Sequence record: OR896824.1 | Origin: Escherichia phage SmurfNell | Direction: 5' to 3' (one strand) | Length of the DNA stretch: 64,000 nucleotides | Shown: positions 1,735 through 28,946 of the stretch, piece after piece | How the letters are laid out: each line of letters starts with the position of its first letter | Numbering within the stretch: position 1 is the stretch's first letter | Made by a program: the position numbers and the translations under genes | Notes under the pieces: generated by a model | Database searches by the model: none | Seen by the model: only the letters and a program-made list of their open reading frames with translations | Told to the model about the DNA's origin: nothing

Positions 1735-2016
1735 TTAGTTCTGTACTGTAAATTCATTCTTATCACAGTGAGCATAATAATATCCATACATACGATAAAT
1801 TTTCACAGCCTTAGTAGACCCCTTCGATTCTTCATAATCAATCCAGAGCCACTTGTCTTTACCTACATAATGTACCCGAAACTTCTTAACTTTCTTATCA
1901 TTCCATGTTGCAACAACACGACGATAATCAAATCCGCCCAACCAATCTAGAGCCTTACGTTCTTCACTAGGCTCTCCAAGATAGGAAACATCTACTTTCG
2001 GAAGCAATTCGCTCAT
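1735..2016 (-). CDS. hypothetical protein
   Basis: 93 aa ORF immediately downstream of nrdD on the same strand. Confidence 0.45.
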   Translation of the reverse strand: MSELLPKVDVSYLGEPSEERKALDWLGGFDYRRVVATWNDKKVKKFRVHYVGKDKWLWIDYEESKGSTKAVKIYRMYGYYYAHCDKNEFTVQN

Positions 2017-2114
2017 AGCTTTCTCCTCTCAAATTTATAAATCAATTATACATAAGTTTTAGCTCGAAAGCAAATAAAATAAAAGCCAGGTCGACTAGCA
2101 ACCTGGCTGATTCA

Positions 2115-3989
2115 TTATTTAGCGCGAATGTCCTGATGTTTCACTCGACCCATAACCTCATGTTGTTTACCTGGGTTAAATGGACGAGCACCTGGATTTC
2201 CGAGATATCCACAAACTCGACGAGTTACCTCAAGAGTCTCAGGATCATGGTTGCCACAAATTGGGCATTTGAAACCATCCTCAGAAGCTATAGTTTCACC
2301 CAAGAACCCACATTCCCCACAAGAGTCTACTGGAGTATTAATACCAAAGTAATGAACTTTACTTGCGGCATAGTTAATAACCCATTCCAGTGCATCTGGG
2401 AATCGTTTCATATCCGGCAATTCCACATAGGAAATGCATCCACCAGAAGCAATTGGAGTAAAGTTAGACTCATAATCGAACTTCACGTTTGGAGCAACCT
2501 TACGTTCTACATCAAGGTGATGGGAATTAGTGTAATATCCTTTAGCCAGAATATCTTCATGCTCTGGAAAATACTCACGGTCTAGGCGACAGAAGCGATC
2601 ACATAGAGATTCAGATGGTGTAGCATATAGACTATACCCTAATTGAGTCTCTTCCTTCTTCTGATCAGCACGATCACGCATGTATTGTAGCACACGTTGA
2701 ACGAACTTGACACAAGACTCAGACATTGTATCTACATCTTTACCAAACATGAACTGCAACATTTCGTGGCAGCCTATATATCCTAGAGATACAGAAGCAC
2801 GCTTGTAGAAATGATCAAACACATATTCATCTGGCCCCAGACGTAATCCAAAGGCTCCTGACATATAGAGGATGGGTGCAGCTTTAGCTTGGATGTATTT
2901 TAAGCGATCAACCCTCCACTCCAATGCTTTTAACGCGGTATCCACACGCAGCTCAAGTAGATCGAAGAATAGATCAATATTTCCTTCCGCTTCGATAGCG
3001 ATTCGAGGAAGGTTTACGGAAACAACACCTAAGTTATTACGGCCAGAAGTTTCACCATCTTCCGCAGCAGCTAGGAATGATCGACAGCCCATAGAGACTT
3101 TGTAGTCTCCCGTAACTTCTACAACCTTATCATAACTGATGTAGTCAGGATACATACGTTCAGCAGTACATTTCATAGCTAACTTCTTGATATCATAGTT
3201 AACATCACCAGGTTTCATATTTACGCCATCACGCAAAACAAATACCAGTTTAGGGAAGATAGCTGTACGTTTATTGATACCCAAACCATCCATACGCACT
3301 TCTAAGATTGCTTTCTGTACAAGACGTGCTTCCCAGGAAGTTCCTAGACCAAAACCAAAGGTAATAAATGGACTCTGACCATTAGAGTTGAACATCGTAT
3401 TGATTTCATACTCTAGACCTTGACAGGCATCGTAAACTTCTTTCTCAGTCATTTCCGTAGCCATTACAGATGCTTTGGCTTCATCCTTAGTCCAACGCTT
3501 TGCAAACGCATGATTCTTATCATAAGACTTACGAACATAAGGAGCCAGTACTTCATCTAATCGGTCTACAGAAGTACCACCATATTGATGGGAGCTAACC
3601 TGAGTAATAATCTGAGCTGTAATAGCAGCCGCAGTAGTAATGGAGTTTGGCGTACTGATTTCAGCATTACCAACCTTCATACCGTTTTTCAACATATCTT
3701 CCAAAGCAACCAGGCAACAGTTAGTCATACCTAACACAGCGTAATCAGCATCATGGAAGTGAATATCACCAATCATGTGAGCATTTCGAATCTGGATTGG
3801 CATTTCTTCCAGAATCAGATATTTACTCAATTCCCCTGCAAGCATGTCCCTTTGTGTAGGGAAACGTTCTGAGGGCTTATTGGCATTATTAAACAGCAGC
3901 TCTTCATCTGCTGACCCTTCGATAATCTCTTTGCAGTTTCTAATTAACGCCTGCATTTCTTTATACTTTAGTTCTTCATTGCGATTCAT
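2115..3989 (-). CDS. nrdD: anaerobic ribonucleoside-triphosphate reductase (class III RNR)
   Basis: 624 aa; C-terminal glycyl radical motif RVCGYLG preceded by a CGECGF...CPICG zinc ribbon. Confidence 0.85.
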   Translation of the reverse strand: MNRNEELKYKEMQALIRNCKEIIEGSADEELLFNNANKPSERFPTQRDMLAGELSKYLILEEMPIQIRNAHMIGDIHFHDADYAVLGMTNCCLVALEDMLKNGMKVGNAEISTPNSITTAAAITAQIITQVSSHQYGGTSVDRLDEVLAPYVRKSYDKNHAFAKRWTKDEAKASVMATEMTEKEVYDACQGLEYEINTMFNSNGQSPFITFGFGLGTSWEARLVQKAILEVRMDGLGINKRTAIFPKLVFVLRDGVNMKPGDVNYDIKKLAMKCTAERMYPDYISYDKVVEVTGDYKVSMGCRSFLAAAEDGETSGRNNLGVVSVNLPRIAIEAEGNIDLFFDLLELRVDTALKALEWRVDRLKYIQAKAAPILYMSGAFGLRLGPDEYVFDHFYKRASVSLGYIGCHEMLQFMFGKDVDTMSESCVKFVQRVLQYMRDRADQKKEETQLGYSLYATPSESLCDRFCRLDREYFPEHEDILAKGYYTNSHHLDVERKVAPNVKFDYESNFTPIASGGCISYVELPDMKRFPDALEWVINYAASKVHYFGINTPVDSCGECGFLGETIASEDGFKCPICGNHDPETLEVTRRVCGYLGNPGARPFNPGKQHEVMGRVKHQDIRAK

Positions 3990-4182
3990 TATACTCTCCT
4001 TCTCTAACTAAGACTACTATTATAACTCATTCGAGGGCGGATGTCAATATAATTTTTCTCTTAGACATTGTATTTTGATCTGTGCTAAGAAAATTGATCA
4101 GAATGTCAAAATTTTATTGACACCACCATAACTTTTGTATAAGATATACACATAACTTAAAAATTTTGACAAGGAAATAAAA

Positions 4183-4674
4183 ATGAATACTGAAATAACA
4201 CAAGACCTACTAAGAACCTACTTTGACTATAAAGATGGAGAATTGTTTTACAAACCAACCTATAAAACCCCTGCGGGAAGAATATCCAAAAAAGCAGGTA
4301 AATCTGCCAGACTAACTCCGTGTAACGGGTACTATCGTATAAATGTACCAAGAATAGGTGTACAGAAAGAACATAGGATGATTTTCCTATATCATGAAGG
4401 ATACCTACCAGAAGTAGTAGATCATATTGATAGGGATAAAGAAAATAATAGGATAGAGAACCTTAGGGCATCTAATCTTCAGGATAACGCTATTAATCGC
4501 TCCATAAGTAAGAGTAATACCTCTGGTATTGTGGGTGTACATTATGATGAATCATATGGTAAGTGGGTTGTAACGTATAGGGGTAAGTACTTTGGAAGAT
4601 TCGATACTAAAGAAGAAGCTGCCGAAGTTAATGCTAATGTTCGTGCCCTTGATCAAACCCGTATAAATAGTTGA
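4183..4674 (+). CDS. HNH homing endonuclease with AP2-like DNA-binding domain
   Basis: HRMIFLYHEGYLPEVVDHIDRDKENNRIENLR HNH motif; C-terminal GIVGVHYDESYGKWVVTYRGKYFGRF AP2-like repeat. Confidence 0.75.
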   Translation: MNTEITQDLLRTYFDYKDGELFYKPTYKTPAGRISKKAGKSARLTPCNGYYRINVPRIGVQKEHRMIFLYHEGYLPEVVDHIDRDKENNRIENLRASNLQDNAINRSISKSNTSGIVGVHYDESYGKWVVTYRGKYFGRFDTKEEAAEVNANVRALDQTRINS

Positions 4675-4757
4675 GTATCTAGTACCACACATCTCCCAAT
4701 AAAAGCAAGCAAATTTTTTATTTAAAAGCAATATCATAGGCTTATTTAAAATTGTAG

Positions 4758-4786
4758 TTGCTTTCTCCCGTATATATTGGTATAAT
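4758..4786 (+). promoter_or_regulatory. sigma70-type early promoter (TTGCTT-17-TATAAT)
   Basis: -35 TTGCTT and extended -10 TGGTATAAT with 17 bp spacer upstream of phoH. Confidence 0.6.
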
Positions 4787-4859
4787 ATATTTGTAAGTTG
4801 ATAAACAAGATCTTTTTGTTGATCCTCTGTTAGCGAAGTACACTATAGGAGTGTTATTT

Positions 4860-5612
4860 ATGGGAAAAGCACGTCAAAAAAGAGAGAACCGCAATGGTTC
4901 AAGAAAGCGTGGCAACAAGTACGAGAGCAACGTAATTCAAGCAGATTTCTCTGGTGATTACGCCAATCCAGTTGCTAAACCCCTAGTTGGTAAAAACCGT
5001 GAGCAAAAATCATATATCAATATGATCAAGAACAACACAGTGACTGTGGGTATTGGTGAACCAGGTACTGGTAAAACCTTTATTCCATCCGTTCTTGCAG
5101 CTCAGGAACTCGTAGACATTCACTCAGATATTGAGCAAGTGATCCTCGTGCGTCCGAACGAACCTCTAGGTAAATCTCTTGGTATGCTCCCAGGTGATCT
5201 GGCAGAAAAGCTAGAGCCTTGGTTAGAGCCAATAGCTGATGGCATGAAATGGGCAATCGGTGATCACGCCTACAAAGGATATGTCGAACGTCAGAAAATT
5301 AAATTCCTGGCTATCGAACATGCCCGTGGCCGAACTTTCAACAACTCCTATGTAATTGTCGATGAAGCTCAGAATATCTCCGTTGAAGCAATGATCTGTC
5401 TCCTGACTCGTGTAGGACAAGATTGTCGTTTAATTATCTGTGGGGATATAGCGCAGAAAGACATCAAGGGTGATTCAGGTCTAGCACTTCTTATGGAAGT
5501 CTATGAGAAGTATGAAAACTCTCCTTTCTCTATGATCGAACTGATCGACAACGTTCGCTCACCAGAGTCTAAAGCATTCTACGATATCTTTAAGGATATG
5601 GGGAAGGTGTAA
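4860..5612 (+). CDS. phoH: PhoH-like ATPase
   Basis: Walker A GIGEPGTGKTF; ATG at 4860 with AGGAG RBS (track start 4851 is GTG). Confidence 0.8.
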   Translation: MGKARQKRENRNGSRKRGNKYESNVIQADFSGDYANPVAKPLVGKNREQKSYINMIKNNTVTVGIGEPGTGKTFIPSVLAAQELVDIHSDIEQVILVRPNEPLGKSLGMLPGDLAEKLEPWLEPIADGMKWAIGDHAYKGYVERQKIKFLAIEHARGRTFNNSYVIVDEAQNISVEAMICLLTRVGQDCRLIICGDIAQKDIKGDSGLALLMEVYEKYENSPFSMIELIDNVRSPESKAFYDIFKDMGKV

Positions 5613-5613
5613 T

Positions 5614-5856
5614 ATGGGAAACGTCGTACATCTGCACCGCAAAACTAAGATCCACCGTACTTCACTGAGTGCTGCTAATATGATTACACGTAAGGAAGGG
5701 GAAGAAAGTCCTAAGACTACCCTAGCGTGGAAAATTGTAGCCTCTAATCCAAATCGGCCTTTTAATTATAATGAACTTTCAACATCAGTAGATATTCTTC
5801 TGAGGGCGAATGCGAAAGCAAAAGTAATTAATCAAGCCGAAAAACTAGACTGGTAA
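5614..5856 (+). CDS. hypothetical protein
   Basis: 80 aa ORF, start overlaps the phoH stop. Confidence 0.4.
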   Translation: MGNVVHLHRKTKIHRTSLSAANMITRKEGEESPKTTLAWKIVASNPNRPFNYNELSTSVDILLRANAKAKVINQAEKLDW

Positions 5857-5911
5857 TATAGAAGGCCTGGGTATGAAAATATCCGGGCTCTTTTTATCTG
5901 TAAAATTGTAC

Positions 5912-5940
5912 TTGCAAAATGACCCAAAACAAAGTAGAAT
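5912..5940 (+). promoter_or_regulatory. sigma70-type promoter (TTGCAA-17-TAGAAT)
   Basis: -35/-10 hexamers with 17 bp spacer upstream of nrdA; implies the real nrdA start is the ATG at 5979. Confidence 0.45.
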
Positions 5941-5978
5941 ATTTCCTAAATCCTGATAACTACAAAAAGGAAAGCCAA

Positions 5979-8309
5979 ATGAGCCATCGCATAGAAAAAG
6001 TAATTAAACGTGACGGTACTGTAGAAGACTTTGCTCCTGAAAAACTCAATGGTTGGGCAGTGTATGGCTGCAAAACAGTTGATGTAAGCTGGTCATCCAT
6101 CACTATGGCTGCTCAAAAAACTCTACCTAAAGGTGTTGTAGACTCCGACACCCTAATGGATGCGTTAATTAAAGCCGCTGAAGGTCTTATCAAAGATAAC
6201 CCAGCATATGACGTGCCGGCTAAGGAATTACGTCTTGCGCAGATGCGTAAACGTCTATATGATTCCTTCGAGCCTCCTTCTCTGCGTTTCTTCCACGATC
6301 ATATGGTTAGTGTTGGAGCTTGGGAAGACATGAGTGCATGGATTACTGATGAACAATTTGAAGCTCTGAATCAAGTTATCGACCATGATCGTGATCGTTT
6401 ATTCACCAGTGGTGGACTGAAACAGTTCTTCGACAAGTATTCCCGTCGTAATATTGCAACTGGTGAAATTTATGAAACTCCGCAGTTTGCCTACATGGGT
6501 ATGGCAATGGCGATGCTATCTCAACCTAACTGGACAATTCTAGATGCAATCGACCTCTACAATGCAATGTCGCTCCACAAAATCAACGTTCCTACGCCGC
6601 CACTGGTTGGCCTGCGCTCTAGTGACCGTGGATTTGCTAGTTGCTGCCTCGTGGATTCCACTGACACGCTGGATTCAATCGACACAGCCGAGCACATCGT
6701 CTTCAAAATGGTCGCAGCCAGAGCGGGAATCGGGTATCATCTTGAAAGCCGATCAATTGCTGATCCGGTGCGAAATGGGGCATTCCCGCATTCCGGAAAA
6801 CTGCCATATTATAGACACATTGACCGATCAGTAAAAGCTAACACTCAGCAAACCCGTGGTGGTTCTGCTACTGTGTCTTACCCATACTTCGATCCTGAAA
6901 TCATTCAGTTGATGCAGGTTAAACAGCAACGTGCTACAGACGAGAATAAAATCGATAAGATGGATTACTCTCTGAGCTTTAACAACCTTCTGTTAAAACG
7001 TTACCTGAAAAACGAAGATATTACGCTAATGTCCTACTTCTACGCACCAGAAGTTCATAAAGCGTTTTATGGTGAAGATGAGGCTAAGTTTGAAGAAATC
7101 TACGTGGCAGCGGAGAAACGTGTGGCATCTCTTACAAAGATCGACCACGAAGGAAAAACAATTCCAGCAGCTCCTAGAATCTCTGCAAAAGAAATCCTAG
7201 ATACTTGGTTACGTATCCGTATGGAAACAGGGCGTATGTATGCTCATCACATTGGTGAATCTAACCGTCATGGTAACTTCCTTGACCCGATTCGTATGAC
7301 CAACCTTTGTGTTGAAATTACTCAGCCAACCCGTCCATTCCATCACATTACGGAACTGTATAAGACCCAAGATCAGTTAGACGATATGCGTCCAGAAGAT
7401 ATTGGTGAAGTATCTTTGTGTAACTTAGGTGGTGTTGTACTAGGTCGCATGGAATCTCTAGCTGAATGGGAGAAAACTTGCTACATCCTTCTGAAATTCG
7501 TTGATACAATCATCGAGATTCAGGACTACCCATTCCCAACCATGGAATACACGGCTAAGAAACGTCGTAACGTTGGTATTGGTCTGATGAACGCGGCAGG
7601 TGCAATGGCAGCAGAAGGTTTGGCTTACGAAGGTGTTGAAGCCCGTAACTGGATTCACCGTGAAGCTGAAAAGCTGTCCTACTTCCTGCACAAAGCCTCT
7701 GTACGTCTGGCTAAAGAACAAGGTGCATGTGACTGGTTTAATCGTACTAAACCATCCAAAGGAACTCTGGTAATCGACACGTACAAGAAAACTGTTGATG
7801 AACTGGTAACTGTAGGTCTAGAAATGGATTGGGAATCTCTGCGTGCAGATATTCTGAAATATGGTATGCGCAACTCTGTTCTGACTGCTCAGATGCCGGG
7901 AGAAAGTTCCTCTGTACTGCTAGGTGTTACTAACTCTATCGAGCCGCCTCGTAAGATTGTATCTATCAAGGGTAGTGCAGTGAATAAAGTAATTGCAATT
8001 GCTCCAGGTGCAACCGATTGGGATACATTAATGAGTTATAAACTGGCTTATGATGTAGATCGTATCGAGTGGATCAAATGGGTAGCAACCATGCAGAAAT
8101 TCTTCAGTCAGTCTATCAGTACGAATATGTACTATGACTACACCAAGTTTGAGAATGAAATCATTCCTGGTCCAGTAGTAGTTCGTGATTTCATGACTGC
8201 TGTTAAGTACGGCTGGAAAACTTGGTACTACGCTAACTTCAACACTGAAAATGGTGGTGGAGCTGGTGAAGAAGCAGCAGGTTGTGCATCAGGTGGTTGT
8301 ACTATTTAA
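5979..8309 (+). CDS. nrdA: ribonucleoside-diphosphate reductase alpha subunit (class Ia)
   Basis: ATP-cone-like N-terminus VIKRDGTVEDF; active-site NLCVEI motif; start set at second ATG with AAAGGA RBS (track ORF begins 5919). Confidence 0.85.
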   Translation: MSHRIEKVIKRDGTVEDFAPEKLNGWAVYGCKTVDVSWSSITMAAQKTLPKGVVDSDTLMDALIKAAEGLIKDNPAYDVPAKELRLAQMRKRLYDSFEPPSLRFFHDHMVSVGAWEDMSAWITDEQFEALNQVIDHDRDRLFTSGGLKQFFDKYSRRNIATGEIYETPQFAYMGMAMAMLSQPNWTILDAIDLYNAMSLHKINVPTPPLVGLRSSDRGFASCCLVDSTDTLDSIDTAEHIVFKMVAARAGIGYHLESRSIADPVRNGAFPHSGKLPYYRHIDRSVKANTQQTRGGSATVSYPYFDPEIIQLMQVKQQRATDENKIDKMDYSLSFNNLLLKRYLKNEDITLMSYFYAPEVHKAFYGEDEAKFEEIYVAAEKRVASLTKIDHEGKTIPAAPRISAKEILDTWLRIRMETGRMYAHHIGESNRHGNFLDPIRMTNLCVEITQPTRPFHHITELYKTQDQLDDMRPEDIGEVSLCNLGGVVLGRMESLAEWEKTCYILLKFVDTIIEIQDYPFPTMEYTAKKRRNVGIGLMNAAGAMAAEGLAYEGVEARNWIHREAEKLSYFLHKASVRLAKEQGACDWFNRTKPSKGTLVIDTYKKTVDELVTVGLEMDWESLRADILKYGMRNSVLTAQMPGESSSVLLGVTNSIEPPRKIVSIKGSAVNKVIAIAPGATDWDTLMSYKLAYDVDRIEWIKWVATMQKFFSQSISTNMYYDYTKFENEIIPGPVVVRDFMTAVKYGWKTWYYANFNTENGGGAGEEAAGCASGGCTI

Positions 8310-8317
8310 TAAAAACA

Positions 8318-8345
8318 AGGAGATCTTCGGGTCTCCTTTTTCTTT
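8318..8345 (+). terminator. rho-independent terminator
   Basis: 8 bp stem AGGAGATC/GGTCTCCT with TTCG loop followed by a T-run. Confidence 0.6.
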
Positions 8346-8355
8346 GAAATTTTAC

Positions 8356-8385
8356 TTGCTAATCGCTACCAGATTTGCTATAATA
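8356..8385 (+). promoter_or_regulatory. sigma70-type promoter ending 5 nt before the HNH start codon
   Basis: TTGCTA-18-TATAAT; ATG at 8391 lies 5 nt downstream of the -10, implying a leaderless transcript. Confidence 0.45.
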
Positions 8386-8390
8386 TCTAT

Positions 8391-8888
8391 ATGAAATTAA
8401 CACAGAGTAGATTAAAAGAGCTAATCTCCTATGACCCTGAAACTGGCGAATTTACCTGGCTCCCAAGAAAAACTTTAGCAAAGCATTTATGGAACGCTAA
8501 AGCAGGAACCTATGATAAATTAGGGTATCTTCGTATAAAAGTTGAAGGAGTTCAATATTTAGCTCATCGCCTAGCCTTCTTGTATATGACTGGAGAAATA
8601 CCAGAAGGAAAAATTGACCATAAAGATACTAATCCGTCTAATTGCGCCTGGGATAATCTCCGTGAAGCCACGAGTTCTCAAAATTCTATGAACTCGTGTG
8701 CAAGATCGGATAACCAGCTTGGAATGAAAAATATTCGTGTAAAAGGCACTTCATTTCAGGTTAGGATAGGCAAAGACGGCAAATCTTATACAAAAACTTT
8801 TAAAACCCTAGAAGAAGCTATAGAATGGAGAGACACCAAACTACTAGAACTTCATGGGGACTTTGCAAACAACGGAGAAGCTAAATGA
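8391..8888 (+). CDS. HNH homing endonuclease (free-standing, between nrdA and nrdB)
   Basis: EGKIDHKDTNPSNCAWDNLREAT HNH motif; C-terminal AP2-like repeat; stop overlaps the nrdB start. Confidence 0.75.
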   Translation: MKLTQSRLKELISYDPETGEFTWLPRKTLAKHLWNAKAGTYDKLGYLRIKVEGVQYLAHRLAFLYMTGEIPEGKIDHKDTNPSNCAWDNLREATSSQNSMNSCARSDNQLGMKNIRVKGTSFQVRIGKDGKSYTKTFKTLEEAIEWRDTKLLELHGDFANNGEAK

Positions 8889-10030
8889 CTACTTTACTTA
8901 ACTTAGAATGGGAACATACTAACGCTGATCTTTTCCTCGGTGATTCTTTGGGTATCGCAGATTATGTGCGTGTGGCACACCCCGAACTAGAGCGATTAGC
9001 TCTGTTGCAGCGTTCCCAGTTCTGGACTGAAACTGAAATTAGTCTTGAAGCTGATAAAAAGCAGTGGGGTAATCTCCCGCGTGATATTCAGGAAATTACT
9101 CTCCTGAACTTAGCATGGCAAACCCAAACAGATTCTTTCATTAGTCGTGCTCCTGAAGCAGCTATTATGCCACTTGTAAGCCGTCCTGAACTGGAAGGTA
9201 TGCTCAAGCAGTGGAGCTACTTCGAAGATCTGCACAGCCGTGCGTATAGTAATATTATTCGTAACGTTCTGACTGATCCAGCAGAATTTATTGATTCTGT
9301 AACTAAAAACCAAGAAGCATTTGCACGTATCGCAGATTCTGTTGAACTGTTTGATGAATTGTATCTGTTAGGTCAGTATTTCCTTGCAGTACGTGATCAT
9401 CGTGGTGATAATACTTATCCAGAAACTGAGTTCCCTGAAGTTAAACGTGAAACTCAGGCTAAGCTGTTAGATGCTTACTTTGCAATCTACGGTCTGGAAG
9501 CAATGCAGTTCTACGCATCCTTTGCATGTACCTTTGCTCTAGCAGAGAACGATATTCTGCAAGGTATTGCCAAGAACCTGCAACTAATTGCTAAAGATGA
9601 AGCTCTGCACACTCAAATGTCTAAAGCTATCATCCAGATTATGTTTCAGCAATTTGATAAAGATCTGGTAGATGAAGCATTAGCTAAAGCACCAGCACAA
9701 CTCCTAAAAACTCTGAAAACTGAGATTGAATGGGGTCACTTTATCTTTAAAGGCCGTAGTCTGATTGGTTTGAACGCAGAACTGCTTGAAGAATATCTTT
9801 ACTTTGTAGGACGTAACGCATTTATGCACATTGGTGTAGAATGGCCAAGCCACTTACCTGTAATTACTAAGAACCCTATTCCGTGGATTATGAACTGGTT
9901 GGATACTACATCTTTACAACCTGCTCCGCAAGAGATTCAGATTGGTGCAGCATATCGTGTAGGTCAGGTAACTGAAACCTCTGCTGATACTCTGAAAGAT
10001 CTTGGCAACGAATTTGAGGGTATGTTCTAA
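8885..10030 (+). CDS. nrdB: ribonucleoside-diphosphate reductase beta subunit
   Basis: 381 aa, size and position typical of NrdB directly downstream of nrdA. Confidence 0.75.
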   Translation: MTTLLNLEWEHTNADLFLGDSLGIADYVRVAHPELERLALLQRSQFWTETEISLEADKKQWGNLPRDIQEITLLNLAWQTQTDSFISRAPEAAIMPLVSRPELEGMLKQWSYFEDLHSRAYSNIIRNVLTDPAEFIDSVTKNQEAFARIADSVELFDELYLLGQYFLAVRDHRGDNTYPETEFPEVKRETQAKLLDAYFAIYGLEAMQFYASFACTFALAENDILQGIAKNLQLIAKDEALHTQMSKAIIQIMFQQFDKDLVDEALAKAPAQLLKTLKTEIEWGHFIFKGRSLIGLNAELLEEYLYFVGRNAFMHIGVEWPSHLPVITKNPIPWIMNWLDTTSLQPAPQEIQIGAAYRVGQVTETSADTLKDLGNEFEGMF

Positions 10031-10560
10031 TGATAGCAGCAATCTATGCAACTGGGCCGAATGGGGAGTTCGGCCTCAATGGTAAACTCCCTTGGGGTTC
10101 TTTCAAAGAAGAACTAGATATCTTCTATGCTACTTTGGATTCTCTAGCACCTGACAATATTATTGTAGGAGCAGGAACTTGGTTAGCATTCCCTGAGACT
10201 CTGCAAAAAAGAATACTAGGAGATTCTGACCTATTTATTTATGCAAATAGACCACTACCTAACTCTGTAGGATCAGCCACACGCATAAGTAACATTGGAT
10301 ACAGTCTACCTGATTTCCTCAAGGAAGAAGTAACTGTAGTATTAGGGGGAGCAACTCTGCTTCTTGAAATGTATGTCAAAAATCATCTAGATATGGCGTA
10401 TATCTCTACTATTACTTCAGCTACACCATTATCTGCTGATGTACATCTGCATCATCACATTACTTTAACTAATTCAATGGCAACTAGAATGGACTATGTG
10501 GCAGGACAGAATGCAGATAAAACGCTTTCATTCTTACAAGAATTGGTGATATTTAAATGA
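10030..10560 (+). CDS. dihydrofolate reductase
   Basis: N-terminal [22 protein letters not shown] matches the DHFR signature; start overlaps nrdB stop. Confidence 0.75.
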
Positions 10561-11411
10561 AGCAATATATTGAAACTGGAAAACGTATTCTTGAAGAGGG
10601 TGTATGGGTAACGAATCCTAGAACAGGGGTTCGTTGCCTAACCATTATTGATGCAGACTTTACCTTTAACGTAGGAGCAGGAGAACTGCCGCTAGTAACT
10701 ACTCGTAAAGCATTTGCTAAACAAGCAATAATGGAAATGATCGGATATCTCCGTGGGTACGACTCAGCAGCACAATTCCGCGCTATTGGTGTTAATACAT
10801 GGAATGCTAATGCAAATGAAAATATTGCCTGGCTAGGTAATCCATTCCGTAAAGGCGAGGATGATATGGGACGAGTCTATGGTGTTCAAGGACGTCATTG
10901 GACTAATTCTGATGGTATGGTATTTGATCAGTTAGCCAAAGTCTATCATAATTTGAAAAGAGGGATTGACGATCGTGGAGAAATTTTAACTTTTTGGAAC
11001 CCTGGGGAATTTCGTAGAGGATGCCTACGTCCGTGTATGCATACCCATCAATTCTCTATTTTAGGTGATACACTATACCTAAACTCTTTCCAGAGGTCTA
11101 ATGATTTCTTGCTGGGCCAAGTATTTAATATGGTGCAATGCTATGCACTTCTAGCTATTATGGCACAGATTACAGGTCTTAAGCCAGGTATTGCTCGTCA
11201 AAAGATTATTAATCTTCATATCTATGAAGATCAGTATAATGTTCTGATGGAGCACAAGCAATTCGATCGTGAACCTTTTGCACCTCCTACTTTAGAAATC
11301 AATCCAAATATTAGAACTTTGGATGATGTATTAACGTGGGTAAGTAAGGATGATTTTACTGTTCGTGGCTATGAACACCATCCTGCTATTGCATACCCAT
11401 TCACAGTCTAA
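10557..11411 (+). CDS. thyA: thymidylate synthase
   Basis: 284 aa; RPCMHTHQF active-site Cys region and RSNDF...GQVFN motif; translationally coupled to the DHFR gene. Confidence 0.7.
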
Positions 11412-28324: not shown

Positions 28325-28400
28325 GGGGTCATAGGTTATTTGGTTAAACTTACTGCCTTGCAAGCAGTGGAACTCAGTTCAATTCTGAGTGACTCCACCA
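28325..28400 (+). tRNA. tRNA-Ala-like second copy (anticodon UGC)
   Basis: Acceptor GGGGTCA/TGACTCC with G3-U70, anticodon arm ACTGC-CTTGCAA-GCAGT, T-loop TTCAATT, CCA. Confidence 0.5.
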
Positions 28401-28413
28401 AATTAGAGGAAGC

Positions 28414-28875
28414 ATGGCTAGAACAGATATATTGGAAAGAAAGGATGAAATTCTTCTCTGGATAGAAGAAAATCAACCCAAAGCTGAAATTGCTAGAAGA
28501 TTACGCTGCAAAGTTGATACACTGAATACTTATCTGAAAAAGATGGGAATACAATATTCAGGTAACTCTGCTAGAAAAGGTTTTATACGTTCTGAGATAC
28601 AGGATGGGTATATTCCGGCAGTGAATTACTTTTACAAAAATAGCCCAATATCTTCTAGTCAGCTTAGAATAAAGATACTACGTGATGGCTTAAAACCTCA
28701 CAAATGTGAAAATTGTAATTTATCTGAATGGATGGGAGTTCCAATCCCCTTAGAGTTAGAGCATAAAGATGGTGATCATTATAATAATGAGTGGGATAAT
28801 TTAGCTTTATTATGTCCCAACTGTCATACACTAACAGATACACATTCAGGTAAGAATAAAGGAACATACGCGTGA
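28414..28875 (+). CDS. HNH endonuclease with N-terminal HTH, inserted in the tRNA island
   Basis: C-terminal HKCENCN...EHKDGDHYNNEWDNLALLCPNCH HNH motif. Confidence 0.75.
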   Translation: MARTDILERKDEILLWIEENQPKAEIARRLRCKVDTLNTYLKKMGIQYSGNSARKGFIRSEIQDGYIPAVNYFYKNSPISSSQLRIKILRDGLKPHKCENCNLSEWMGVPIPLELEHKDGDHYNNEWDNLALLCPNCHTLTDTHSGKNKGTYA

Positions 28876-28946
28876 TTGATGGAATTGGCATACATACCGT
28901 CCTTAGAAGTCGGGTTTTGAGGGTTCGAATCCCTTGTCACGCACCA
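28870..28946 (+). tRNA. tRNA with UAG anticodon (Leu-type), class I architecture
   Basis: Acceptor GCGTGAT/GTCACGC, anticodon loop CTTAGAA, 5 nt variable loop, A73, CCA; scaffold resembles the tRNA at 23314; 5' end overlaps the HNH stop. Confidence 0.5.

What the first reader, a model, noticed from the sequence alone, without database searches (positions are those of the whole stretch)
8356..8888. Free-standing HNH homing endonuclease between nrdA and nrdB with an apparently leaderless start; two further HNH genes elsewhere
The HNH/AP2-type endonuclease gene sits exactly between the two RNR subunit genes, a classic homing site, and its ATG lies 5 nt after the -10 element of its own promoter. 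A paralogue (4183..4674) sits upstream of phoH and a third HNH gene (28414..28875) is inside the tRNA island, with tRNAs overlapping both of its ends.
Basis: partly seen in the sequence, partly recalled or inferred. Interest (0 to 1): 0.4.

Follow-up and report, generated by a model that had tools for sequence, protein, structure and literature searches.

The report
Homing endonuclease gene replacing nrdB leader
A selfish, mobile nuclease gene already known from T5-like phages sits between the two ribonucleotide-reductase genes, and it appears to borrow the neighbouring gene's promoter so exactly that its messenger RNA would begin at its own start codon, an untested twist kept in four diverged lineages.

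Summary
The window is a T5-like phage (Demerecviridae, Epseptimavirus-like). ORF 8391..8888 is a real 165-aa HNH endonuclease gene between nrdA and nrdB. Its predicted fold is closest to the nicking homing endonuclease I-HmuI, with an AP2-like C-terminal domain. Presence/absence polymorphism is clear: about half of ~440 related phage records have an empty 106-nt spacer, about 7% carry this allele, and the rest carry other HNH alleles. The same allele was described in phage AKFV33 in 2012, so the gene and its "homing hotspot" position are already known.

Two corrections. The promoter (8356..8384) is not the endonuclease's own: it is the resident nrdB promoter, present unchanged in empty sites of two genera. 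The gene replaces the 29-nt nrdB leader and supplies a new Shine-Dalgarno for nrdB. Also, tRNAs overlap only the 3' end of the third HNH gene.

The leaderless reading gains comparative support. TATAAT-N6-ATG, with no Shine-Dalgarno, is kept in four lineages (68-78% protein identity, synonymous sites saturated) although the six bases differ. Sister alleles have a 20-22-nt leader, a Shine-Dalgarno and TTG/GTG starts. Differences linked to the endonuclease gene lie only in the first ~185-240 nt of nrdB, as for T4 MobE, which is unrelated in sequence. No transcription start site or cleavage data exist. This is a known kind with a modestly new expression variant.

The parts
8317..8346 (+). Intrinsic terminator after nrdA: 9-bp stem, UUCG loop, then a T-run. 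It is resident phage sequence, not part of the mobile cassette.
   Evidence: scan. fold: -12.5 kcal/mol, z = -2.84. Identical in empty sites.
8356..8384 (+). Resident T5-type early promoter of nrdB: TTGCTA, 17-nt spacer, TGcTATAAT (extended -10). The endonuclease gene has captured it.
   Evidence: Present unchanged in 16 empty-site loci, where it precedes a 29-30-nt nrdB leader. The homologous promoter is present in an empty Sugarlandvirus site. The TTGCTA-17-TATAAT type recurs across the window.
8387..8884 (+). Mobile cassette, 498 nt. It replaces the 29-nt nrdB leader of empty sites (TCCTGAAATAGTGAGAAAGAGGAAAATCA). The left junction lies 2 nt after the -10 hexamer and the right junction at the nrdB ATG.
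   Evidence: Alignments A1 and A2. Spacer length is 575 nt against 106 nt in empty sites.
8391..8888 (+). HNH homing endonuclease gene, 165 aa. Residues 1-57 form N-terminal beta hairpins, residues 58-100 the HNH core (D76-H77, N89, N98, N101), and residues 115-158 an AP2-like three-stranded sheet plus helix.
   Evidence: Pfam HNH_3 1.2e-16. PHROG 99 1.9e-61. I-HmuI (1u3e) is the best solved relative by sequence and by fold (model pLDDT 95.9). Invariant catalytic columns.
8391..8393 (+). ATG start codon, predicted to coincide with the transcription start. The A is the 7th base after TATAAT and follows a T. This would give a leaderless mRNA.
   Evidence: Sequence. The same 6-nt spacing occurs in Sugarland L006, L108 and L109 with different hexamers. 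The first 12-15 nt of the RNA are predicted unpaired. The transcription start itself is inferred, not measured.
8874..8877 (+). GGAG Shine-Dalgarno for nrdB, lying inside the last codons of the endonuclease gene and 7 nt before the nrdB ATG.
   Evidence: Sequence. Analogous GGAG or AGGA in the other alleles.
8885..8888 (+). ATGA overlap of the nrdB start codon and the endonuclease stop codon, which suggests translational coupling.
8885..9124 (+). The 5' part of nrdB that carries the differences linked to the endonuclease gene. For this allele there are 21 columns, nrdB nt 15-185 (window 8899-9069), that share no base with any of 16 empty-site genomes; one is a nonsynonymous N8E change. This is the candidate target, immunity or co-conversion zone.
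   Evidence: No such columns occur in 780 nt of the nrdA 3' end. Divergence from phage gmork is 10-35% here and returns to about 0 after about 9200.
7300..9200 (+). Exchanged mosaic patch around the endonuclease gene, relative to the otherwise identical phage gmork, which carries allele C.
   Evidence: no mismatches in 100-nt bins from about 6000 to 7300 (99.1% identity over the whole 1945-8392 segment), about 4% divergence over 7300-8390, the endonuclease gene replaced, nrdB divergent to about 9200, then near-identical. One search gives the gmork annotation.
4183..4674 (+). Distant paralogue (31% identity; HNH_3 plus a weak AP2 hit). It has a conventional 37-nt leader and AAGGA Shine-Dalgarno behind promoter 4117-4145. 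It is rare: 11 of 443 related records.
28414..28875 (+). Third HNH gene, of a different family (N-terminal helix-turn-helix-like region, C-terminal HNH), in the tRNA island. GAGG Shine-Dalgarno at 28406-28409. The stop codon lies inside tRNA-Leu (28870-28946).

Best explanation
ORF 8391..8888 is a free-standing HNH homing endonuclease gene (HEG). It belongs to the P-TflVIII-position group of T5-like phages and is the same allele as AKFV33 ORF96 and SPC35_0087.

The protein is a single-active-site His-Me-finger nuclease. Its closest solved relative is the nickase I-HmuI, and it carries an AP2-like DNA-binding domain at the C-terminus.

The gene does not bring its own promoter. It sits as a 498-nt cassette that replaces the 29-nt 5' untranslated leader of nrdB. 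The cassette begins 2 nt after the -10 hexamer of the resident T5-type early nrdB promoter and ends at the nrdB ATG.

Proposed steps, all inferred:
1. Host RNA polymerase starts at the A of the ATG (8391).
2. The endonuclease is therefore the first cistron of a leaderless bicistronic mRNA.
3. It is translated by Shine-Dalgarno-independent initiation at the 5'-terminal AUG, probably at a low level.
4. nrdB is then translated from a GGAG inside the end of the endonuclease gene, helped by the ATGA stop/start overlap, so expression of the host-essential gene is preserved.
5. In mixed infections the enzyme nicks or cuts genomes that lack the gene, in or next to the 5' end of nrdB or its leader.
6. 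Recombinational repair then copies the cassette and a flanking tract into the cut genome.
For: Identity of the protein:
- Pfam HNH_3 60.4 bits and PHROG 99.
- D76-H77, N89, N98 and N101 are conserved across 7 alleles and 80 homologues.
- The AlphaFold model has pLDDT 95.9. Its top Foldseek hit is I-HmuI 1u3e, followed by plant AP2 domains 7wq5 and 7et4. phmmer also finds 1u3e.
- About a third of full-length homologues carry a Pfam AP2 hit.

Mobility:
- In an even sample of the 443 related records, 31 of 57 informative rows are empty, 4 carry this allele and 22 carry other alleles.
- 28 records hold the protein at 95% identity or more, and every annotated one lies next to nrdB.
- 78 of 82 Sugarlandvirus records lack most of the query, consistent with an empty site.
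- Junctions are sharp and common to the alleles.
- A roughly 1.9-kb mosaic patch surrounds the gene relative to phage gmork, which is otherwise identical in the flanks.
- dN is 0.19-0.30 while dS is saturated between lineages, which indicates purifying selection.

Resident promoter: the identical terminator and promoter occur in 16 empty sites and in an empty Sugarlandvirus site.

Leaderless start:
- There is no Shine-Dalgarno and no upstream in-frame start.
- TATAAT-N6-ATGAAA occurs in four lineages with four different hexamers: ATCTAT, ATTCAC, ATCTGT and ATATTC.
- Sister alleles B, C and E have a 20-22-nt leader with a GGAG-type Shine-Dalgarno and use TTG or GTG. By established knowledge, leaderless initiation needs AUG.
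- Other T5-type promoters in the window have the form TATAAT-N6-ATAAATT. From my own knowledge of T5 PN25, transcription there starts at the A that is the 7th base after the hexamer.
- Among 75 family loci, only this clade has a -10 hexamer 4-9 nt from the start codon.

Target side:
- Columns linked to the endonuclease gene lie only within nrdB nt 6-240.
- T4 MobE, in the same spacer, nicks the 5' region of nrdB (PMC2790892).
Against: - No transcription start site, protein or cleavage data exist for this gene. I found no T5 start-site map in the paper library.
- Start-site choice could be heterogeneous. A start at G 8393 would destroy the start codon.
- Transcripts reading through the nrdA terminator could be translated through the A/U-rich upstream sequence without a Shine-Dalgarno, so the mRNA need not be leaderless to be translated.
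- The four "independent" lineages share one ancestor, so the layout arose once. Only its maintenance is informative.
- The nrdB-side polymorphisms may be hitch-hiking donor sequence rather than immunity changes.
- Pfam AP2 does not hit this protein directly.
Confidence: 0.6

Rival explanations
1. It is a homing endonuclease gene, but not a leaderless one. Under this view the endonuclease is made, weakly, from longer transcripts that read through the nrdA terminator or start elsewhere. Initiation would be Shine-Dalgarno-independent and ribosomal protein S1-assisted, on the A/U-rich sequence upstream. The closeness of the -10 hexamer to the ATG would be a by-product of where the cassette landed.
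For: The upstream 80 nt are A/U-rich and unstructured apart from the terminator. Several other endonuclease genes also lack recognisable ribosome-binding sites: six of twelve in T4 (PMC2988022), and allele D here. No start-site data exist.
Against: The terminator looks strong (-12.5 kcal/mol, T-run). The exact 6-nt spacing is kept in four lineages whose synonymous sites are saturated and whose intervening hexamers differ. ATG is used only in the alleles without a leader, and TTG/GTG only in those with one.
Confidence: 0.2
2. The endonuclease gene is largely silent, or is an inactive remnant that persists by linkage. The promoter would start mostly at G 8393 or later and serve only nrdB.
For: Defunct endonucleases do persist in phages, for example I-TevIII in T4 (PMC2790892). 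G 8393 is also a purine that follows a pyrimidine.
Against: The ORF is intact in all 28 records and in four diverged lineages. Catalytic residues are invariant and dN is far below dS. Position 7 after the -10 hexamer is the preferred start position for E. coli RNA polymerase (established knowledge).
Confidence: 0.1
3. The presence/absence pattern reflects repeated deletion of an ancestral gene, or ordinary recombination between phages, with no endonuclease-driven homing.
For: T5-like phages recombine freely and are mosaic (PMC10644984).
Against: Empty sites carry a complete, conserved 29-nt nrdB leader with its own Shine-Dalgarno, unrelated to the cassette, so they are not deletion scars. At least four unrelated-to-distant HNH alleles share the same junction. 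Fixed differences are one-sided, on the nrdB side only, as expected for a nearby target site.
Confidence: 0.1

Closest known systems
AKFV33 ORF96, SPC35_0087 (annotated "putative H-N-H-endonuclease P-TflVIII") and other annotated HNH genes between nrdA and nrdB of T5-like phages (Niu et al. 2012, PMC3326045)
   Same: It is the same gene, at 98.8% protein identity, in the same position. It was already described as an endonuclease in the nrdA-nrdB hotspot and compared with mobE.
   Different: The earlier descriptions do not mention capture of the resident nrdB promoter, replacement of the nrdB leader, or the leaderless layout. T5's own gene at this site (allele B) is only about 42-44% identical and has a leader, a Shine-Dalgarno and a TTG start.
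T4 MobE, a free-standing HNH endonuclease between nrdA and nrdB (Wilson & Edgell 2009, PMC2790892)
   Same: Same intergenic niche. MobE has no promoter of its own and depends on host-gene transcription. Its target is the 5' region of nrdB, matching the nrdB-side polymorphisms here. Mobility is by gene conversion with co-conversion of flanks.
   Different: There is no detectable sequence similarity (BLASTP E = 40). [quoted passage not shown] The gene here lies downstream of the nrdA terminator, at +1 of the nrdB promoter.
I-HmuI, the intron-encoded HNH nicking homing endonuclease of Bacillus phage SPO1 (PDB 1u3e)
   Same: It is the best solved relative by sequence (E = 9e-4) and by fold (Foldseek probability 1.00 over 164 columns). 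It has the same HRL...DHKD...N...N catalytic motif and N-terminal beta-hairpin DNA-binding part.
   Different: I-HmuI is encoded in an intron and its C-terminal DNA-binding modules differ. Here the gene is free-standing and the C-terminal domain is AP2-like. Whether the enzyme nicks or makes a double-strand cut is untested.
Leaderless mRNAs of E. coli phages and transposons, for example lambda cI from PRM (from my own knowledge)
   Same: The start codon would sit at the transcription start, there is no Shine-Dalgarno, and the start codon is AUG.
   Different: None of those encodes a homing endonuclease. Here the leaderless cistron is followed by a coupled essential gene, and the start site has not been mapped.
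[quoted passage not shown]
   Same: These are relevant to the third HNH gene (28414..28875). Like it, they are endonuclease genes embedded among tRNA genes, and in the T4 segB case tRNA processing cuts the mRNA at its stop codon (PMC2330249).
   Different: I did not test homology of the window's third gene to the F-Tfl enzymes. It belongs to a different family from the nrdA-nrdB gene.

Membership tests
HNH / His-Me-finger endonuclease (Pfam HNH_3, PF13392) | Profile match above the curated threshold | tested here: met
   60.4 bits against a cut-off of 24.8, covering residues 56-100. All 7 alleles match.
HNH / His-Me-finger endonuclease (Pfam HNH_3, PF13392) | Catalytic His and metal-binding Asn residues present | tested here: met
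   D76, H77, N98 and N101 are invariant, and N89 is at least 90% conserved, in 80 homologues. They align with the I-HmuI motif DHKD...N...N.
HNH / His-Me-finger endonuclease (Pfam HNH_3, PF13392) | Beta-beta-alpha-metal fold | tested here: met
   AlphaFold model with pLDDT 95.9. The top PDB hit is I-HmuI 1u3e, probability 1.00.
HNH / His-Me-finger endonuclease (Pfam HNH_3, PF13392) | Metal-dependent DNA nicking or cleavage | not testable with these tools
   Needs purified protein and substrate DNA.
AP2-type DNA-binding domain | Pfam AP2 (PF00847) match | tested here: not met
   No hit at E <= 0.1 for this protein. The paralogue at 4183 gives 21.3 bits, below the 33.3 cut-off. About one third of full-length homologues carry a precomputed PF00847 hit.
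AP2-type DNA-binding domain | Three-stranded sheet packed on a helix, similar to plant AP2/ERF domains | tested here: inconclusive
   The model has strands 115-118, 121-128 and 131-137 and helix 140-158. Foldseek hits: WRINKLED1 7wq5 (E = 0.06) and the TEM1 AP2 domain 7et4 (probability 0.99, E = 0.13, target-normalised TM-score 0.46).
Free-standing homing endonuclease gene | Intergenic position, not inside an intron or intein | tested here: met
   It lies between the nrdA stop (8309) and the nrdB start (8885).
Free-standing homing endonuclease gene | Presence/absence polymorphism at the same site among close relatives | tested here: met
   Empty 106-nt spacers occur in 16 of 33 classified loci.
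Free-standing homing endonuclease gene | Flanking co-conversion or mosaic tract, and differences from empty alleles near the insertion | tested here: met
   One search shows the 7300-9200 patch relative to gmork. One search shows 21 linked columns in nrdB nt 15-185.
Free-standing homing endonuclease gene | Site-specific cleavage of the allele that lacks the gene, and super-Mendelian inheritance in crosses | not testable with these tools
   Needs phage crosses and cleavage mapping.
Leaderless mRNA | Transcription start coincides with the first base of the start codon | not testable with these tools
   This is predicted only. The A at 8391 is the 7th base after TATAAT and follows a pyrimidine. 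The same register occurs at other T5-type promoters in the window. No start-site data were found.
Leaderless mRNA | No Shine-Dalgarno, no alternative upstream start, and an AUG start codon | tested here: met
   Alleles with a leader use TTG or GTG plus a Shine-Dalgarno.
Leaderless mRNA | Spacing from promoter to start codon conserved across diverged relatives | tested here: met
   Four lineages keep N6 = 6 nt with different sequence, and dS between them is saturated.
T4 MobE family | Sequence homology to MobE | tested here: not met
   BLASTP E = 40. The gene is an analogue, not a member.

The most novel reading that the evidence does not exclude
A whole clade of HNH homing endonuclease genes, found so far in at least two Demerecviridae genera plus two lineages from public sequencing-run assemblies, has evolved to occupy exactly the 5' untranslated region of an essential phage gene. 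These genes start at +1 of that gene's promoter, so the endonuclease is made from a leaderless mRNA and nrdB is re-coupled behind it. Leaderless initiation would then be a selected throttle or timer for a selfish nuclease. That mode is not among the known endonuclease controls: promoter choice, internal terminators, RNase E or tRNA processing, sequestration of the ribosome-binding site, coupling, and autorepression. It would also be the first leaderless gene noted in T5-like phages.
Probability: 0.55. Interest if true: 0.5.

Novelty: new variant of a known kind. Interest (0 to 1): 0.35.

Why it matters
The gene and its location are ordinary for T5-like phages, and were published in 2012. What is new is the anatomy.

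The cassette swaps out the nrdB leader with single-nucleotide precision. It reuses the host gene's promoter and hands nrdB a new ribosome-binding site. That shows how a selfish element can insert in front of an essential gene at almost no cost.

If the mRNA is truly leaderless, this adds a new way in which homing endonucleases keep their expression low or timed. It also offers natural matched pairs for studying leaderless translation in enterobacteria during phage infection. These pairs are alleles with a leader, a Shine-Dalgarno and TTG/GTG, and alleles with no leader and ATG, all behind the same promoter.

The allele series (empty, A, B, C, D and E at one spacer) is also a ready system for studying competition between endonucleases for one site.

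Tried and rejected
- **nrdA last two codons.** ACT ATT versus AAC CTG first looked linked to the endonuclease gene. Both versions also occur in empty sites, and no fixed differences exist in 780 nt of nrdA. I dropped this.
- **Pfam AP2 on the protein and its alleles.** Only the 4183 paralogue hits, and below threshold. The AP2 label therefore rests on homologues and fold only.
- **dN/dS between lineages.** It could not be computed because dS is saturated. I report only dN and the saturation.
- **Literature searches.** Searches for a T5 transcription-start map or T5 leaderless genes, and for leaderless homing endonucleases, found nothing relevant for enterobacterial phages.
- **Rfam on 3900-10200.** Only a chance-level DnaX hit (E = 0.69).
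- **Homology to T4 MobE.** None.
- **More HNH paralogues in the window.** BLASTP and phmmer with the three seeds found none. Ten further ORFs between 12 and 34 kb gave no endonuclease domains.
- **Generic promoter scan.** It is not enriched over shuffles (16 found, 15.3 expected). The case for the promoter therefore rests on conservation in empty sites and on similarity to the other T5-type promoters, not on the scan.
- **Exact counts of empty and occupied sites.** I estimated these from an evenly spaced sample of 60 of the 443 records, not from a full census.
Full report
**What the window is.** BLAST of 7800-9500 against GenBank phages finds 443 records, all T5-like Demerecviridae. The best are Salmonella phages fuchur and Sds2 at about 98% identity. 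Region 1945-7300 shows no mismatches against Salmonella phage gmork in 100-nt bins from about 6000 onward, and the whole 1945-8392 segment is 99.1% identical. The genes around the finding are:
- nrdD on the minus strand (2115-3989)
- an HNH gene (4183-4674)
- phoH (4851-5612)
- a DUF7430 gene
- nrdA (5919-8309)
- the HNH gene of the finding (8391-8888)
- nrdB (8885-10030)
- the dihydrofolate reductase gene (annotated in gmork) and an ORF at 10557-11411 in the thymidylate-synthase position (by synteny only; I did not scan these two ORFs)

**Check of the observation.**
- ORF 8391-8888 encodes 165 aa and matches Pfam HNH_3 at 60.4 bits, against a cut-off of 24.8.
- Upstream lies an intrinsic terminator at 8317-8338 plus a T-run (-12.5 kcal/mol, z = -2.84).
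- Next comes a promoter: TTGCTA (8356-8361), a 17-nt spacer, TG, then TATAAT (8379-8384).
- Six bases (ATCTAT) separate the -10 hexamer from the ATG.
- There is no Shine-Dalgarno. The frame is open from 8313, but 8391 is its first ATG/GTG/TTG. The next in-frame candidate is a TTG at codon 63, which would remove a conserved N-terminal domain.
- The stop codon overlaps the nrdB start (ATGA), and a GGAG lies 7 nt before the nrdB ATG.

**The other two HNH genes.**
- The gene at 4183-4674 is a distant paralogue: 31% identity, with HNH_3 and a sub-threshold AP2 hit. It has an ordinary leader and Shine-Dalgarno.
- The gene at 28414-28875 belongs to another HNH family.
- tRNA-Ala ends at 28400, 13 nt before that gene's ATG, so there is no overlap at its 5' end. 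tRNA-Leu begins at 28870, so the last sense codon and the TGA stop lie inside the tRNA.

**The promoter is resident, not the endonuclease's own.** I aligned the spacer with relatives and classified 33 loci.
- Empty sites have a 106-107-nt spacer: the nrdA stop, the same terminator, the same TTGCTA-17-TGcTATAAT, then ATTCCTGAAATAGTGAGAAAGAGGAAAATCA and the nrdB ATG.
- The promoter therefore belongs to nrdB.
- In the window, a 498-nt cassette (8387-8884) replaces the 29-nt nrdB leader. It begins 2 nt after the -10 hexamer and ends at the nrdB ATG.
- The promoter matches the T5 early-promoter type that recurs across the window. That type is TTGCTA-17-TATAAT-N6-ATAAATTGA...GAGG...ATG, with leaders of about 30 nt.

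**Several alleles compete for this spacer.**
- Allele A: the window, fuchur, SPC35, AKFV33 and others. 28 records hold it at 95% protein identity or more, and every annotated one lies next to nrdB.
- Allele B: T5 itself and faergetype.
- Allele C: IrmaTschudi and gmork.
- Allele E: phiLLS.
- Alleles A, B, C and E share the same left junction, TATAATAT|CT.
- Allele D (Eps7 "F-TflVI") sits at a second point, upstream of the promoter, where it replaces the terminator.
- Identities between allele groups are 29-47%, apart from A to E at 69%.
- In the evenly spaced sample, 31 of 57 informative rows are empty, 4 carry allele A and 22 carry another allele.
The same holds for the other two HNH genes: 11 of 443 and 17 of 570 records cover at least 80% of the region queried around each gene.

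**Evidence for mobility by gene conversion.**
- Against gmork, the window matches without mismatches up to about 7300 and then diverges by about 4% up to the endonuclease gene.
- It carries a different allele there (gmork has C).
- Divergence is 10-35% over the first ~300 nt of nrdB, and the two sequences are again near-identical from about 9200.
- This amounts to an exchanged patch of about 1.9 kb centred on the endonuclease gene.
- Across loci, I counted columns at which every carrier of an allele differs from all 16 empty sites. These lie only in nrdB nt 6-240: 21 columns for A (nt 15-185, including N8E), 16 for B, 44 for C and 26 for E.
- None occurs in 780 nt of the nrdA 3' end. Allele D shows the reverse pattern, with 2 columns at the nrdA end and none in nrdB.
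- This one-sidedness points to a target, or an obligatorily co-converted interval, in the nrdB leader or 5' coding region.
- It matches T4 MobE, which lies in the same spacer and nicks the 5' region of nrdB (PMC2790892). MobE, however, shares no detectable sequence similarity with this protein.

**The protein.**
- D76-H77, N98 and N101 are invariant, and N89 is at least 90% conserved, in 80 homologues.
- The closest solved sequence is the nicking homing endonuclease I-HmuI, with an aligned HRL...DHKD...N...N motif.
- An AlphaFold model built on 80 sequences has pLDDT 95.9. Its best Foldseek PDB hit is I-HmuI (probability 1.00). The next hits are plant AP2 domains (7wq5, 7et4), which match the C-terminal sheet-plus-helix at residues 115-158.
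- Pfam AP2 does not hit this protein, but it does hit about a third of its full-length homologues.
- Between lineages dN is 0.19-0.30 while dS is saturated. The gene is therefore under purifying selection and is not a decaying remnant.
- With a single HNH site in 165 aa, nicking is the likeliest chemistry. This is inferred from I-HmuI and MobE, not tested.

**The leaderless question.** Four lineages of the allele-A clade place an ATG exactly 6 nt after the -10 hexamer of the nrdB promoter:

| Lineage | N6 | Source |
|---|---|---|
| Allele A (window) | ATCTAT | |
| Klebsiella phage Sugarland, a different genus, 78% identity | ATTCAC | |
| Contig L109, from the Logan assemblies of public sequencing runs, 77% | ATATTC | |
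| Logan contig L108 (113.5 kb, T5-like), 71% | ATCTGT | |

- None of the four has a Shine-Dalgarno, and all begin ATGAAA.
- In Sugarlandvirus the same promoter drives nrdB in an empty site. There, 78 of 82 records lack most of the query, consistent with an empty site.
- The sister allele E (65-69% identity) and alleles B and C sit behind the same promoter. They have a 20-22-nt leader, a GGAG-type Shine-Dalgarno and TTG or GTG starts.
- So ATG goes with no leader and TTG/GTG with a leader. This fits the established rule that leaderless initiation needs a 5'-terminal AUG.
- Among 75 loci of the wider family, only this clade has a -10 hexamer within 4-9 nt of the start codon.
- The A of the ATG is the 7th base after TATAAT and follows a T. 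That is the preferred start position and context for E. coli RNA polymerase (established knowledge). It is also the register of the ATAAATT box at the window's other T5-type promoters.
- The first 12-15 nt of the predicted RNA are unpaired.
- All of this is inference. I found no transcription-start data for T5-like phages.

**Comparison with what is known.** Niu et al. 2012 (PMC3326045) described this very allele, AKFV33 ORF96. They called it a homing endonuclease between nrdA and nrdB, a counterpart of T5 P-TflVIII, and compared it with mobE. Later work notes that homing endonuclease genes are the main source of differences among T5-like genomes (PMC10644984). The review of T4 endonuclease regulation (PMC2988022) lists these controls:
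- promoter choice
- internal terminators
- RNase E or tRNA processing
- hairpins that hide the ribosome-binding site
- translational coupling
- autorepression

It does not list leaderless mRNAs. The paper search found no leaderless homing endonuclease in enterobacterial phages.

**Verdict.** The gene, its family, its position and its mobility are known and ordinary. The leaderless layout is real in the sequence and is conserved well beyond what shared ancestry alone would preserve, but it is unproven as a mechanism. I rate this a new expression variant of a known kind, of modest interest.

Noticed in passing
L034 (IMGVR_UViG_2974597248_000001), spacer and first 75 nt of nrdB: This genome carries allele D upstream of the promoter and an empty-type nrdB leader. 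Its nrdB 5' coding sequence, however, is the allele-B haplotype, although no allele-B endonuclease gene is present. This looks like a footprint of endonuclease-gene loss or of recombination between occupied and empty sites.
   Followed up: partly
window 28870-28875 (end of the third HNH gene, start of tRNA-Leu): The last sense codon and the TGA stop of the third HNH gene lie inside tRNA-Leu. RNase P processing would therefore remove the stop codon from the mRNA. The same arrangement is described for T4 segB and tRNA-Arg and was proposed to limit expression (PMC2330249).
   Followed up: partly
window 1945-9200 versus Salmonella phage gmork (L036): The window matches gmork without mismatches up to about 7300 (100-nt bins checked from about 6000), including the rare HNH gene at 4183. 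It carries a different endonuclease allele between nrdA and nrdB, inside a divergent patch of about 1.9 kb. The window phage is therefore a mosaic that I did not see as a single GenBank record.
   Followed up: yes
window about 4045-4680: The cassette of the second HNH gene replaces about 110 nt of resident nrdD-phoH spacer. In empty genomes (phage S114) that spacer holds a homologous promoter (TTTGCC...TATAAT) followed by a short GC-rich palindrome. I did not determine what that promoter transcribes in empty genomes.
   Followed up: no
window 13208, 16380, 17902, 26551, 30591, 32937, 39602, 42964 (+ strand) and 54595 (- strand): T5-type early promoters share a conserved downstream box, TATAAT-N6-ATAAATT(G/A)A...GAG(A/G)GG, with the ATG about 30 nt after the -10 hexamer. 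The first codons of the endonuclease gene (ATGAAATTA) resemble this box with one extra G.
   Followed up: partly
L003 and L014 (Eps7-type allele D), 60 nt after the nrdA stop: Allele D brings its own terminator-like hairpin (GGGGCGAAAGCCCC). It also lacks a Shine-Dalgarno (TTTTAGATTATG), with a TATAAT 18 nt upstream. It occupies a second insertion point in the same spacer.
   Followed up: no
window 8906-8908 (nrdB codon 8): All carriers of allele A have GAA (Glu), whereas all empty sites have AAT or AAC (Asn). This is a nonsynonymous change in an essential gene that is linked to the endonuclease gene.
   Followed up: partly
window 4857-4902: There is a weak Rfam DnaX frameshift-element hit at the start of phoH (19.6 bits against a gathering score of 35, E = 0.69). 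It is most likely chance.
   Followed up: no
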